64,000 nucleotides of DNA from an uncultured bacterium (lineage in GTDB: Bacteria; Babelota; Babeliae; Babelales; Vermiphilaceae), in assembly GCA_963695335.1 (NCBI GenBank), contig OY968764.1, positions 512,001 to 576,000 of the forward strand, written 5' to 3'. Below are positions 53,384 to 64,000 of the stretch, piece by piece. A program made the translations under genes and the position numbers. How positions within the stretch are numbered: the first letter of the stretch is position 1; every line of letters starts with the position of its first letter. The notes below the pieces were generated by a model. That model was not told the DNA's origin, ran no database searches, and worked only from the letters and a program-made list of their open reading frames with translations.

Positions 53384-54027
53384 CCGCTCGCCCTGATCCT
53401 TAGATACACCACTCGCGTGGCACTCAGGATGAGCGGAAGAGACGTTTCTATTGCTTACTCCGCTCGCCCTGAGTGTTCTTCGTAGCTTTAGCGAAGAAGA
53501 ATGTATCGAAGGGTGCGGAGTTAATTAAAATTTTTCTTTGCTAATAATGAAAGTTTATTAAAGTTTTCTTCAATTAAAGCTTCTTTTTTTTGTCTATTCC
53601 ATTTTTTTATCTGGCGTTCAGCATTAAATGCTTCATCTCGTGATCCAAAAGATTGTATGAATACAACTTCAATTGGTAATCGTTTAGAAGTATAACATTT
53701 ATATTCATTTGAGTTATGTTCGGCTATTCGTTTTTCAATATTATCAGTATGTCCAACATAATAAGATGCGTCATTACATTTCAGAATATAAACGTAGAAA
53801 TCATTCATTTACGACTTTCTGTGTTTCCGCACCCTTCGATACGTTTTTTGAAGACAAAAAACACTCAGGGCGAGCGGGTTTGCCGCTTTATTTTTCTTTT
53901 TTTTTGTTGATCCTGAATGCTTTGTCTTGCAAATGTATCAAATGATTAGAATGTTTTTTTACCTACTCCGCTCGCCCTGAGTGTTTTACGTAGCGTTAGC
54001 GTAGTAAAATGTATCGAAGGGTGCGAA
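53384..54027. mobile_element. Candidate REPtron-like locus: GIY-YIG gene bracketed by REP arms
   Basis: Type A arms at 53384-53436 (collapsed pair), 53460-53519, 53827-53877 and 53968-54024 around the nuclease. Confidence 0.65.
53521..53808 (-). CDS. Stand-alone GIY-YIG nuclease (UPF0213/YhbQ-like)
   Basis: YVYILKC-DASYYVGHT-R-EHN, AERQIKKWNRQKKEALI. Confidence 0.92.
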   Translation of the reverse strand: MNDFYVYILKCNDASYYVGHTDNIEKRIAEHNSNEYKCYTSKRLPIEVVFIQSFGSRDEAFNAERQIKKWNRQKKEALIEENFNKLSLLAKKNFN

Positions 54028-60507: not shown

Positions 60508-61449
60508 TTATTGATCCATTGAACAAGCATTATGAGATTGATTTGCTTCAAAGCGAGCAAAATGGGGACGTACATTAACTTTATTTTCTGTAATGAGTGT
60601 TTGGCAGTTTTGGCTGCATGCTTCATTATATGTTTGTACGCAGTCAGTGCAGCTAATAAAGTGTTTGTTGCACATTGCATTGAGGCAATTGTAATAATCA
60701 TCGCACGGTTGTGTGCAGATGGAACAAGAGCCAAGAACATCTTCATTAATACGTACTGCAACGCGTCCATCAAAAACATAATTTTTTCCGCGGAAGAACC
60801 CATCTGGGTATTGTTCTGTGTAGCGAACAATGCCGCCTTCAATCTGATAGACTTTTTTGGCTACATTCTTTTCATTAAGGTACGCGGTTGCGCGTTCGCA
60901 GCGGATGCCACCGGTGCAATACATCAGAACTTGTTTGTCTTTGAAAGTATCAAGATTTTCATCAAGATATTGTGGCAGATCTCTAAAATTTTCGATATTA
61001 GGAGTTATTGCGTCTGTAAACTTACCAATTGCCCATTCATAATCGTTACGGGTGTCTAAGACAATAAGGTCATCTGGTTTATTGGTGAGTAGCTCATGAG
61101 TTTCTTGTGGAGAGAGGTGTTGACCGCCATTGCGCGGGGTAAGTTGATCGTAAGGGATACCAAGAGCAACTGCCTCATCGCGGACTTTTACGCTTAAGCG
61201 TGGGAAGCATTCTGGTCCACCATCGCTTTTTTTAAAATCGATACCGCCAAAAAGTTCATGCGATAACATGTTTTGTATGTATTCATCAAGATTTTCTGAC
61301 GATCCACCAAGGGTACCATTGATGCCTTCATGACTGATGAGGATTCTGCCTTTAAGACCAAGGTTTTCGCAGATTTCGCGTTGCCATTTCATGATCTGTT
61401 TTGGGTATTCTATGGAGATGTATTTATAAAAAAGGATTATTTTGTTCAT
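60508..61449 (-). CDS. trhO: Rhodanese-domain tRNA uridine(34) hydroxylase (TrhO/UPF0176)
   Basis: LFYKY, EGINGT, DTRNDYE, YCTGGIRCE, YVFDGR. Confidence 0.92.
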   Translation of the reverse strand: MNKIILFYKYISIEYPKQIMKWQREICENLGLKGRILISHEGINGTLGGSSENLDEYIQNMLSHELFGGIDFKKSDGGPECFPRLSVKVRDEAVALGIPYDQLTPRNGGQHLSPQETHELLTNKPDDLIVLDTRNDYEWAIGKFTDAITPNIENFRDLPQYLDENLDTFKDKQVLMYCTGGIRCERATAYLNEKNVAKKVYQIEGGIVRYTEQYPDGFFRGKNYVFDGRVAVRINEDVLGSCSICTQPCDDYYNCLNAMCNKHFISCTDCVQTYNEACSQNCQTLITENKVNVRPHFARFEANQSHNACSMDQ

Positions 61450-61537
61450 GTATTTGTCCCGATAAGTGAATTTATTAATTTTTAGTATATCACACAATAT
61501 TTTTTAAATTAAGGGGAAGGCGTTAGCTTTTGTTGAT

Positions 61538-61586
61538 CCGCTCGCCCTGAGTGTTTTTGTCTTCAAAAATGTATCGAAGGGTGCGG
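61538..61586. repeat. Single REP-like arm (type A)
   Basis: ccgctcgccctgagtgtttttgtcttcaaaaatgtatcgaagggt, identical core to 45027-45071. Confidence 0.9.
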
Positions 61587-61594
61587 ATTTTTAA

Positions 61595-61865
61595 GAAAAA
61601 GAAAACCCCCAACTTGGACCCTCCTACGCATAAAGCTACGGAGAACACGGCCGTTGGGGACCTCAGAAAAACTTTCACTCCGTTACGGTTGATTACGTGG
61701 ATGGTTCTTGCCAACCCTCCACACCTCGGGCACAAACGTTCCTTTTGATCCCTTATTGGGTTAAAAACCCTGCCGCCGATACCAAACTTCGCGTTGCTCA
61801 GCTGTGTTATCGGGGAGCCCATGTCGCTCAGAAGCGCCAGGACTCCGGTTTAACCCAACATGTAC
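61595..61865 (-). ncRNA. Candidate structured non-coding RNA, family not identified
   Basis: GC-rich intergenic stretch with several nested stems, TATAAT at 61878-61873 upstream, terminal hairpin plus U tract. Confidence 0.6.
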
Positions 61866-62425
61866 TCATTTAATTATACGTTCGTTAATAACCTGTGCAT
61901 TAGCCAAGCTATATTATTGATGACATTATGTGGCACAGTTGATGGAGCACTTTGTTGGTCTTTGTGTATAAAATACAAGAGATATATAGTGATTGGTTTG
62001 TAATATTCCATCAAGAACTTTCTATACAATTCACCATCAGAGCATTTTTTAAAGTAAAAATTAACACATTCATAGCTTTGGGGATTTTTTTTAAGATAGT
62101 TAAAAACGGTTGTTATTGCGATGAGTACAGCATTGCTTCGTGGAAAGCCAACATCTGCACTCAGTGTGGGAAAGTCTATATTTTTTGTACAATCTAAGGT
62201 TGCTCCTAAGGTGAGGCATTGTTTATAACAAAAAATTAAATCTTTTGAAGCTTCTTCAATTGCCTGATCGCTCGTAAATTCTCCATTTTGGTAATAGCCT
62301 TTTTTGTGTTTGCATGCTCTGCGTACTTTGTATATGGGATGGTTTTGCGGTCCTATGATGCGTGGTTCTTCAACACGCATAAAAATACTTTTTTCCTTGT
62401 CAGTAGTATATCGTGTGGTGTTTAT

Positions 62426-62990
62426 TTAATTGAGCAGAAAACCCTGGCTTTTCAAAGCCAGGGATGAATGCGAGTCAAAATGGAGGCGATGGAGCAATGC
62501 AGTTATAGTAATTGCGAAGAGCCGGCTCTTTAGGCATACTAAAAAACATGGGTAAATATTGGTGTGGATCTCAAACAAAGCACAGACTTATGTATCATTT
62601 AGTATGGATTCCAAAATATAGAAAGAGAGTATTAAAAGGAGAGATAGCAGAAAGAATAAAAGATCTATTGTATGAATGCGCAGATTTGCAAAGATGGAAA
62701 ATAGAAGAGCTAAACATTCAATTAGATCATGTTCATATGTTAGTTCAAATGAATCCAGATGTAAGCGTGAGCAGGATGGTACAATTGTTTAAAGGAATGA
62801 CCAGTAAAGTTGTGCGCGAAGAATTTCCAGAATTAAAAGAGTTTTTGTGGGGTAAAAGTTTTTGGTCAGATGGGTATTTTGCAGAAACAAGTGGTCAGGT
62901 AAACGAAGATCGCATACGAGAATACATCCGAAATCAGTAGAATATATCCTAAAAAGCGAAGCGGGGGCTTTTAAGCCCCCTGTTTTTCAC
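62426..62990 (+). mobile_element. IS200/IS605-family element carrying tnpA only
   Basis: Inserted 3' of TTTAT, ends in TCAC, no target duplication; subterminal hairpins 62442-62463 and 62963-62980. Confidence 0.9.
62548..62940 (+). CDS. tnpA: IS200/IS605 HUH (Y1) transposase
   Basis: YHLVWIPKYR, DHVHML, FKG, FWSDGYF, YIRNQ. Confidence 0.95.
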   Translation: MGKYWCGSQTKHRLMYHLVWIPKYRKRVLKGEIAERIKDLLYECADLQRWKIEELNIQLDHVHMLVQMNPDVSVSRMVQLFKGMTSKVVREEFPELKEFLWGKSFWSDGYFAETSGQVNEDRIREYIRNQ

Positions 62991-63334: not shown

Positions 63335-64000
63335 TCATGAATGTTCCTGTTCTCTAATCTCACAAATTCCACTCATCAACCGAGCTATATAATCGATCAG
63401 TTCCTTTGGTAAACTTGAAATATTCTGCCCAGCATCTTTATGTATCCAATATAAAAGATATATAACACTAATGGGTTTGTAATATTTCATTAACAATTTT
63501 TTATACAACCCAAACTCAGACCGTTTTTTAACAAAAAGATTAATACTTTCATATTGATTTGGATTGTCTTGAAGAAAATTAAAAACAGCTTGTATTGCAA
63601 TGGGTGCAGCTTTATCCCTAGGAAAACCAACATCAGCACCAAGTGTAGGAAATGCTATATTTTTATTCTTTTTTTCATTGAATTGAAAATATTTTAAACC
63701 TTGAGTTAAGGCGTTGGTATAGCATAAGGGTAAATCTTTTGAAGCTTCTGTGATTGCTTGATCGCCTTTGAAGCATAAATTATAATACATATCTTCTCTG
63801 TTGGGTACAGGTCTGTGAACGTTATATACAAAAGTATTCAAGCATTCAGCTGGTATAGTAAAATTGACCATTTCCTCTGGCTTATCAGGAACGACGATCG
63901 CATATCTCTGAGCGCGAGTGGAGTTACTAATACATGGTTCTTCAATGGTTATGATAAATGGTTTGTATTTTTGCGAATTTTTCCACGTTTGTTTATCAAT
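63335..64000 (-). CDS. Macro-domain-like protein, paralog; 5' end beyond window
   Basis: Frame open to 64000; EASKDL..CY, NIAFPTLGADVGFPR..AAPIA. Confidence 0.75.
   Translation of the reverse strand: MDKQTWKNSQKYKPFIITIEEPCISNSTRAQRYAIVVPDKPEEMVNFTIPAECLNTFVYNVHRPVPNREDMYYNLCFKGDQAITEASKDLPLCYTNALTQGLKYFQFNEKKNKNIAFPTLGADVGFPRDKAAPIAIQAVFNFLQDNPNQYESINLFVKKRSEFGLYKKLLMKYYKPISVIYLLYWIHKDAGQNISSLPKELIDYIARLMSGICEIREQEHS

What the first reader, a model, noticed from the sequence alone, without database searches (positions are those of the whole stretch)
61595..61865. Unidentified ~270-nt structured RNA with its own promoter and terminator
On the minus strand: TATAAT (61878-61873); outer stem uuggguuaaa/uuuaacccaa (61858-61849, 61765-61756) enclosing ggagucc/gggcucc (G-U pair favours this strand) and ccgaua/uaucgg; then gugga..gguu-ggcaag-aacc.uccac and ccguaacgg; final ccccaac/guugggg hairpin (with a type C repeat in its loop) and a U tract. 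GC is well above background. I do not see tRNA, tmRNA, RNase P or SRP signatures; a divergent 6S or an orphan motif RNA remains possible.
Basis: partly seen in the sequence, partly recalled or inferred. Interest (0 to 1): 0.7.

Follow-up and report, generated by a model that had tools for sequence, protein, structure and literature searches.

The report
Knotted single-stranded-DNA repeat arm, Babeliales
The folded 270-base stretch is real but is not a one-off RNA gene: it is one arm of an undescribed repeat, usually found in back-to-back pairs in Babeliales bacteria, whose conserved core appears to fold as single-stranded DNA into a pseudoknot containing a triple helix.

Summary
The stems are real and covary, but the element is multi-copy. 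There are 12 arms in this genome (8 in head-to-head pairs), and it occurs in 36 of 80 genomes of the family and 42 of 150 sampled across the order, at 0 or up to 24 copies. Filled and empty sites differ between close relatives.

It has (i) a hairpin capped by a GNA triloop (140 of 162 arms), (ii) an H-type pseudoknot (95 of 122, against 17 shuffled), and (iii) a loop that mirrors the purine strand of the second stem, giving at least 4 antiparallel G·G-C, A·A-T or T·A-T layers in 87 of 100 arms. Features (i) and (iii) are typical of folded DNA, not RNA.

The family has no promoter enrichment (25 of 174, against 20 shuffled). The terminator-like hairpin is in only 56 of 176 arms. No neighbouring gene is conserved and there is no Rfam match. 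No mobilising enzyme was found, and transcription could not be tested.

Best reading: the lone arm of a non-autonomous, REPIN-like doublet that acts as structured ssDNA. It is closest to E. coli intrastrand-triplex repeats and, in behaviour, to TwoAYGGAY doublets.

The parts
61594..61865 (-). One complete arm of the repeat (5' domain + core + genus-specific 3' modules); no head-to-head partner at this site in this genome
61756..61858 (-). 5' domain ('A1' type): outer stem 61858-61849/61765-61756 closing two hairpins (61846-61814; 61813-61776). Exchangeable module; other arms carry different long stems here
61733..61747 (-). Core hairpin P3 capped by a GNA triloop (61741-61739, closing pair 61742/61738)
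61709..61732 (-). Pseudoknot helix: 61732-61729 pairs with 61712-61709 in the loop of P4 (H-type)
61699..61727 (-). Predicted class I intrastrand purine-motif triplex: third strand 61727-61724, turn 61723-61721, purine strand 61720-61717, pyrimidine strand 61702-61699. The pair 61717/61702 is mismatched in this copy
61697..61722 (-). Core stem P4 (second stem of the pseudoknot)
61671..61690 (-). Optional hairpin P5 with an internal GTA/GAA motif and a GNA tip; one basal pair is broken in this copy relative to its closest paralogue
61607..61659 (-).
61619..61650 (-).
61873..61885 (-). 7-nt end of a REP-like unit of the kind found in doublet spacers (61885-61879), plus the TATAAT that overlaps the stop codon of ORF 61874-62380
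61537..61587 (-). Adjacent copy of a different, high-copy REP-like repeat (about 65 BLAST hits in the genome), the type that flanks the small GIY-YIG gene at 53521-53808; not part of the arm

Best explanation
The feature is one arm of a non-autonomous dispersed element whose unit is a head-to-head, heterodimeric doublet of about 550-800 bp, so that each DNA strand carries one arm reading outward.

Shown: the family, the secondary structure and pseudoknot (by covariation), the doublet organisation, and presence/absence between relatives.

More speculative: this knot, facing outward at both ends of the doublet, is the site recognised by an unidentified trans-acting ssDNA nuclease or ligase, and/or it stalls an incoming polymerase at the element's edge. 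Either would let the doublet be copied into AT-rich intergenic DNA without a target duplication. Arms then exchange modules by recombination and collect other short repeats and insertion sequences in their loops. This copy is a lone, slightly decayed arm. Its terminal hairpin may incidentally end transcription of the upstream gene.
For: Copy number and spread: 12 arms in G000, 8 of them in four head-to-head pairs; 36 of 80 family genomes; 42 of 150 genomes in 10 of 18 families with the refined model. Doublets: of 177 distinct arms, 112 have a head-to-head partner within 1 kb, 53 have none, 12 are undecidable, and 1 has a convergent partner (the sample is enriched for pairs because some loci were fetched for that reason). 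51 of 57 doublets have dissimilar 5' domains. Filled and empty sites: a 797-bp doublet in G076 sits at a point that is empty in G000, with no evident target duplication, and several other sites differ likewise. Core structure: 95.0% of 1651 cells paired, 16 of 17 pairs with two-sided changes, slid controls 32-55%. Pseudoknot: 95 of 122 against 17 +/- 3.6, 15 different 4-mers. DNA-type signatures: a GNA triloop with a Watson-Crick closing pair in 140 of 162 P3 hairpins, with four closing-pair types, whereas the host's own 16S+23S carry 20 GNRA/UNCG tetraloops and 2 GNA triloops. At least 4 purine-motif layers in 87 of 100 arms (mean 4.39; controls 3.27 +/- 0.08 and 3.12 +/- 0.08). Opposite a duplex A the third strand is A or T in 105 of 109 cases; opposite G it is G in 322 of 374. 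About 4% of paired core cells are G-T (65 of about 1570, counted). Folding z is -3.89 as DNA against -3.05 as RNA for 30 arms, with no such shift in 20 structural-RNA control windows (p 0.014). No promoter enrichment, and A-rich tails.
Against: No mobilising enzyme was found. Y1 transposases are in 10 of 36 element-positive and 16 of 44 element-negative genomes. No RT or DUF559 was found in 5 high-copy genomes, and IS110 only in G000. The Y2 and Rep_1 searches were blank, but their controls were blank too. There are no arms in 20 GIY-YIG loci. Among the 75 ORFs upstream of lone arms, the only mobile-element or DNA-cutting family found is the window's own IS200 gene. Several sites are shared within the genus, so many copies are old and may be immobile. 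Most triloops close with G-C rather than the C-G pair that gives the most stable DNA mini-hairpin (PMC13037366). Pseudoknots and long irregular stems are usual in RNA. PMC7583470 says the evidence on purine-motif triplexes with an RNA third strand goes both ways. The triplex register was chosen per sequence, with G·G counts as tie-break, and the sequences are related, so the p-values overstate. Nine of 100 arms show only 2 layers. A loose triplex+knot pattern alone does not beat a shuffled genome (66 against 60 hits). Nothing was measured in vitro.
Confidence: 0.65

Rival explanations
1. A selfish or orphan multi-copy structured RNA, like extended TwoAYGGAY: the arms are transcribed (by read-through or non-sigma-70 promoters) and fold as RNA, possibly titrating a protein.
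For: H-type pseudoknot, branched 5' domain and conserved G-U pairs on one strand. TwoAYGGAY elements show the same variable copy number, divergent doublets and a 3' pseudoknot and are treated as RNAs (bioRxiv 10.64898/2026.09.22.753630, section 8 read). 99 of 162 P3 tips contain GGA. Lone-pair triloops exist in RNA (recalled; search listing only).
Against: No promoter enrichment against a working positive control, and A-rich tails. Loop census is the opposite of the host rRNA's. The triplex is purine-motif with T·A-T substitutions. No CsrA in 5 element-rich genomes while controls ring. No RF01731 match (the control in 118 was blank). No RT in 5 genomes.
Confidence: 0.2
2. A host-maintained chromosomal ssDNA signal (priming, replication-restart or polymerase-pausing site) that spreads only by recombination and needs no dedicated enzyme.
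For: GNA mini-hairpins occur at phage and plasmid priming sites (PMC13037366, passages read). One arm per strand would serve both directions. No cognate enzyme was found. Structure stays conserved at old orthologous sites.
Against: Not found in 44 of 80 family genomes, including a 95%-complete member of the same genus. Precise filled/empty sites. The four lone arms in G000 lie 3 on the leading-strand and 1 on the lagging-strand template, so there is no clear replication bias.
Confidence: 0.1
3. A cis-regulatory RNA (riboswitch or attenuator) for the downstream rhodanese-domain gene, with the terminal hairpin as expression platform.
For: In this copy the arm is co-directional with, and upstream of, the gene at 60508-61449, and ends in a hairpin plus T tract.
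Against: The next gene downstream of an arm is convergent in 111 cases and co-directional in 51. There is no common gene function. 7 of 9 other genus members lack an arm in the 800 bp upstream of this gene. The possible alternative pairing with the terminal hairpin shows no covariation on inspection.
Confidence: 0.03

Closest known systems
E. coli intrastrand triplex repeat (TM_ECO; PIT/BoxC) - PMC4666352, passages and section 18 read
   Same: Intergenic, tens of copies per genome, purine-motif intrastrand triplex with G·G-C and A·A-T/T·A-T triads, heterodimeric inverted pairs (5 pairs among 23 copies), no link to gene function or to a mobile-element gene.
   Different: TM_ECO is a 37-nt class II triplex (pyrimidine-purine-third strand). 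This is class I order (third strand-purine-pyrimidine), only 4-6 layers, embedded in a covarying H-type pseudoknot, next to a GNA hairpin and a 60-110-nt 5' domain. No sequence comparison with TM_ECO was run.
REPINs/BIMEs with RAYT (TnpA-REP) - PMC3116915, PMC3733652, PMC6006769, passages read
   Same: Non-coding inverted doublets in intergenic space, singlets as remnants, frequent position between convergent genes, targets for insertion sequences.
   Different: Arms are 170-270 nt rather than 20-65 nt, have no GTAG/CGTC foot, are heterodimeric with a pseudoknot and triplex, and show no linked or co-occurring Y1 enzyme.
Extended TwoAYGGAY (Rfam RF01731) - bioRxiv 10.64898/2026.09.22.753630, section 8 and passages read
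   Same: Variable copy number, divergent doublets of similar spacing, long basal stem, 3' pseudoknot, association with REP-like repeats, unknown mobility mechanism.
   Different: No RF01731 match, no twin AYGGAY loops, no CsrA in the hosts tested. I could not obtain a true TwoAYGGAY locus for direct comparison of the 3' knot, and the preprint's supplements are closed.
Ssn (small GIY-YIG ssDNA nucleases) and their SRM hairpin repeats - PMC11893778, parts 1-2 and passages read
   Same: The host carries small GIY-YIG genes flanked by inverted hairpin repeats; such repeats sit beside and inside the arms and share GTA/GAA and GNA-tip building blocks with them.
   Different: The arms themselves were not found in 20 GIY-YIG loci, and four element-positive genomes have only one GIY-YIG match.

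Membership tests
Any Rfam family (incl. tmRNA, RNase P, SRP) | Covariance-model match at gathering score | tested here: not met
   0 hits in the window; only chance hits with E 1.6-6.7 locally; the true tmRNA, RNase P and SRP lie elsewhere
6S RNA | RF00013 match; single-copy long hairpin with central bubble | tested here: not met
   No RF00013 match anywhere in G000 at E<=1; the element is multi-copy, branched and knotted
Independent small-RNA gene | Own promoter upstream | tested here: not met
   25 of 174 against 20.2 shuffled; control 15 of 22 against 5.3; none at this copy
Independent small-RNA gene | Discrete transcript | not testable with these tools
   No RNA holder was listed
Riboswitch / cis-regulatory leader | Consistently 5' of co-directional, functionally related genes | tested here: not met
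   111 convergent against 51 co-directional; unrelated neighbours
Intrastrand purine-motif triplex repeat (class I) | Third strand mirrors the purine strand with G·G, A·A or T·A, followed by a Watson-Crick pyrimidine strand | tested here: met
   At least 4 layers in 87 of 100 arms; specificity table
Intrastrand purine-motif triplex repeat (class I) | Stem of 6 or more triads (ITxF search rule, PMC4666352) | tested here: not met
   6 layers in 10 of 100 arms; 4 in this copy
Intrastrand purine-motif triplex repeat (class I) | Physical triplex formation | not testable with these tools
   Needs DMS/N7 footprinting, CD or NMR
REPIN | Inverted doublets over-represented in intergenic DNA; presence/absence polymorphism | tested here: met
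   8 of 12 arms in G000; 112 of 177 overall; filled and empty sites
REPIN | Short hairpin with 5' GTAG/GTGG (or CGTC) foot | tested here: not met
   Not seen on inspection of alignments and upstream sequences
REPIN | Cognate RAYT gene flanked by the repeat | tested here: not met
   1 arm near a truncated IS200-type fragment in 32 transposase loci; no co-occurrence
TwoAYGGAY | Two AYGGAY-capped hairpins / RF01731 match | tested here: not met
   (blank control); 5' domains inspected
TwoAYGGAY | Homology of the 3' pseudoknot to the extended model | tested here: inconclusive
   No true TwoAYGGAY locus obtained
Ssn-related motif (SRM) | Flanks a small GIY-YIG gene | tested here: not met
   0 hits in the 20 best GIY-YIG loci out of several hundred matches; only those 20 were examined
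Retro-element RNA (retron, group II, DGR) | Linked or co-occurring reverse transcriptase | tested here: not met
   0 of 5 high-copy genomes, controls ring

The most novel reading that the evidence does not exclude
The core is a natural, evolutionarily conserved tertiary fold of single-stranded DNA: an H-type pseudoknot stabilised by a reverse-Hoogsteen purine triplex, plus a GNA mini-hairpin. It defines the ends of a new kind of mobile doublet that either uses an undescribed ssDNA-processing enzyme or moves itself by stalling polymerases or by DNA catalysis. It may be the DNA-level explanation for the wider class of orphan 'structured RNA' divergent doublets.
Probability: 0.35. Interest if true: 0.88.

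Novelty: new variant of a known kind. Interest (0 to 1): 0.68.

Why it matters
Covariation cannot normally tell structured RNA from structured ssDNA; PMC5737381 says so in passages read. This family offers three sequence-level discriminators that point to DNA: covarying GNA triloops, an antiparallel purine triplex with A/T interchange, and the absence of promoters. It gives a short (~65-nt) core that can be synthesised and probed as DNA and as RNA. If confirmed it is a rare natural DNA pseudoknot-triplex with comparative support. It also offers a way to re-examine orphan multi-copy 'RNA motifs' that occur as divergent doublets, and a lead to an unknown ssDNA-handling enzyme in a phylum of protist parasites.

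Tried and rejected
Rfam, window and local and on 8 homologous loci: nothing but chance hits.

Expression: no RNA holder was listed; no reads were laid.

Plasmid and phage BLAST: only 21-33-nt chance hits or none. Viral-contig patterns: 20 loci, none with the full core, nearly all inside ORFs.

Another phylum: 150 genomes plus G176. One weak hit lay inside a coding gene; the three real arms are on one 2.6-kb contig of G176 that looks mis-binned. So the element was not found outside the order in the genomes searched.

Partner enzyme: Y1, GIY-YIG (60, 61, 73), Y2 and Rep_1 (82, 83; uninformative because controls were blank), RT (84), IS110 (85), DUF559 (86), CsrA (127). Also Pfam on the ORFs upstream of lone arms (80), long doublet spacers (73), and all 65-450-aa G000 ORFs flanked by inverted repeats (129). 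None is tied to the arms. I considered a rolling-circle nick-site resemblance at the 5' junction (recalled motif) and dropped it because that junction varies between arm types.

TwoAYGGAY comparison: the motif scan returned 41 loci; none of the 40 scanned against Rfam matched it, and none of the 41 matched the core model.

Model R2 was built with a mis-registered structure string and never used; R1 and R3 were used. A model-free triplex+knot pattern scan was non-specific. The replication-strand test had only four lone arms.

Literature: searches listed no description of this family. The supplement of PMC5737381 could not be read, bioRxiv supplements are closed, and the Semerad and Maher paper was not held (seen only as a citation), so an entry in such supplements cannot be excluded. 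Look-ups of earlier findings by place and sequence were empty.

Full report
OBSERVATION. The gap lies between a 168-aa ORF (61874-62380, a paralogue of the weak Macro-domain ORF at 63335-63871) and a UPF0176/rhodanese gene (60508-61449). Rfam has no match. tmRNA, RNase P and SRP lie elsewhere in the genome. A 6S gene was not found. On its own the stretch folds only modestly as RNA (z -1.43) and better as DNA (z -2.99; slightly different ends).

IT IS A REPEAT. BLAST showed partial copies throughout the genome and its relatives. A covariance model of the conserved core (R1) finds 12 arms in this genome and matches in 36 of 80 genomes of the family, at 1-24 copies or none. The refined model R3 matches 42 of 150 sampled genomes in 10 of 18 families of the order. 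A record carrying the same element is titled Candidatus Babeliales; the small genome and gene content fit that lineage (inference). The 18 metagenome hits all lie in similar intergenic contexts. It was not found in plasmids, phages, viral contigs or 150 genomes of another phylum.

ORGANISATION. Arms come head to head. In G000, 8 of 12 are in four such pairs. Among 177 distinct arms collected, 112 have a divergent partner within 1 kb, 53 have none, 12 could not be judged, and one has a convergent partner (the collection is enriched for pairs). Partners are usually unlike each other (51 of 57). Doublets are present or absent between close relatives: a 797-bp doublet in G076 sits just after a terminator, at a point that is empty in G000, with no evident target duplication, and several other sites differ likewise. 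At the present site G076 has a full doublet built of different modules, G072 keeps only a fused terminal hairpin, and G000 has one arm preceded by 7 nt of a spacer-type repeat. This copy is therefore best read as a remnant or a replaced arm (inference). It differs from its closest paralogue by a mismatch in P4, a broken pair in P5 and a 32-nt insert. Neighbouring genes are unrelated across genera. The next gene downstream is convergent in 111 cases and co-directional in 51.

ANATOMY. Each arm has a variable long 5' stem, a conserved core, an A-rich tail (54% A, 16% T) and, mainly in this genus, two further hairpins. In the core, 95.0% of 1651 cells are paired and 16 of 17 pairs change on both sides, while slid controls give 32-55% (the alignment was fitted to the two stems but not to the pseudoknot or the triloop pair). 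The four bases after hairpin P3 pair with the loop of P4: an exact complement in 95 of 122 parsed arms against 17 +/- 3.6 on shuffling, with 15 different 4-mers. Many of the 27 failures carry wobble pairs, insertions or parsing errors. This is an H-type pseudoknot.

DNA OR RNA. (1) P3 ends in G-N-A closed by a Watson-Crick pair that varies among G-C, A-T, T-A and C-G: 59 of 61 in the unbulged class, 140 of 162 overall. GNA triloops at stems of 4 or more pairs occur at 3.85 per kb in arms against 0.83-0.90 on the other strand or shuffled. The host rRNAs instead carry 13 GNRA and 7 UNCG tetraloops and 2 GNA triloops. GNA-capped mini-hairpins with a sheared G-A pair are unusually stable as DNA, and an RNA mini-hairpin counterpart is far less stable (PMC13037366, passages read; its best cases close with C-G, which is a minority here).

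It mirrors the purine strand of P4 around a turn of 2-5 nt. There are at least 4 layers obeying G·G, A·A or T·A in 87 of 100 arms (mean 4.39; swap control 3.27 +/- 0.08, shuffle control 3.12 +/- 0.08). With a relaxed register, the base opposite A is A or T in 105 of 109 cases and the base opposite G is G in 322 of 374. That is the class I purine-motif intrastrand triplex of PMC4666352. RNA pseudoknots commonly use the pyrimidine motif, and purine-motif triplexes with RNA third strands are disputed (PMC7583470, passages read). Caveats: the register is chosen per sequence, the sequences are kin, and the loose pattern alone is not rarer than chance genome-wide.

(3) There is no sigma-70 enrichment upstream of arms (25 of 174 against 20.2) while 15 of 22 stable-RNA leaders score against 5.3. 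(4) G-T pairs are about 4% of core pairs, and DNA parameters improve the z-score of arms but not of structural-RNA windows (weak). Transcription could not be tested.

MECHANISM. Shown: family, fold (by covariation), doublets, polymorphic sites. Inferred: folding as ssDNA, one arm per strand, with the knotted core facing outward. Not shown: what copies it. Y1 transposases do not co-occur (10 of 36 positive against 16 of 44 negative genomes), and the one arm beside a Y1 hit adjoins a truncated IS200-type fragment. RT, IS110, DUF559 and CsrA do not fit; the Y2 and Rep_1 tests were uninformative. Small GIY-YIG genes flanked by inverted hairpin repeats are common in these genomes and match the Ssn/SRM system (PMC11893778). 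That accounts for the neighbouring repeats but, in the 20 loci examined, not for the arms. My preferred model is trans-mobilisation of the doublet by an unidentified ssDNA enzyme, or polymerase stalling at the knots followed by template switching. It is a hypothesis.

COMPARISON AND NOVELTY. It works like a REPIN and like the E. coli triplex repeat, which also forms heterodimeric inverted pairs (PMC4666352, section 18 read). It behaves like extended TwoAYGGAY doublets (bioRxiv 10.64898/2026.09.22.753630, section 8 read). It fails a defining feature of each (see the membership table). My ten literature searches listed no description of this family; unseen supplements (PMC5737381; the bioRxiv preprint) could bear on that. 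Other papers seen as passages only: PMC6006769, PMC3733652, PMC3116915, PMC6561590, PMC8632094. Earlier notes of this scan report similar doublets in other phyla; these are unchecked leads, and they suggest a broad class, which lowers the novelty of the doublet behaviour but not of the DNA-type knot.

VERDICT. A real feature but not an orphan RNA gene; a new variant of structured intergenic repeat with an apparent DNA pseudoknot-triplex core. Interest 0.68.

Noticed in passing
window 53521-53808 (-), flanks about 53446-54026; also L184, L194, L196, L199, L200, L201: Small single-domain GIY-YIG gene between inverted hairpin repeats that occur about 65 times in the genome. Many Babeliales genomes carry several such genes with long, near-perfect inverted flanks. 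They resemble the Ssn/SRM system, but the repeats are not NTS-like by eye.
   Followed up: partly
G000:C1:895128 upstream; L191: The short type C palindrome, found inserted into arms, lies directly upstream of a second kind of small GIY-YIG gene, suggesting its own nuclease partner.
   Followed up: partly
G000:C1:1188.5-1190.1 kb (L035); L059 (twice); L028; L165: A transposase element (IS4-like by recalled signature, not tested against a library) has inserted into the P4 hairpin of arms at several independent positions, and a short non-autonomous form lies in one doublet spacer.
   Followed up: partly
L164 1262-2935; L166 1198-2412: Head-to-head arms bracket single passenger genes: a PP2C phosphatase in G074 and an unknown, probably secreted protein in G063.
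   Followed up: no
L170, L171, L084 (G002): Near-identical arms repeated in tandem with a period of about 229 bp beside a divergent partner, suggesting recent local amplification.
   Followed up: no
window 62512-62940 (+): IS200-type tnpA, three copies with equal scores in the genome, between two paralogous Macro-like ORFs; no link to the arm found.
   Followed up: partly
G000 whole genome: No 6S RNA was found with RF00013 at E<=1 and no CsrA, although the genome is a single contig, 94% complete.
   Followed up: no
L059 / G176:C173: A 2.6-kb contig in a genome titled Puia sp. carries three arms and is 88-92% identical to G000 over long stretches; probably mis-binned.
   Followed up: partly
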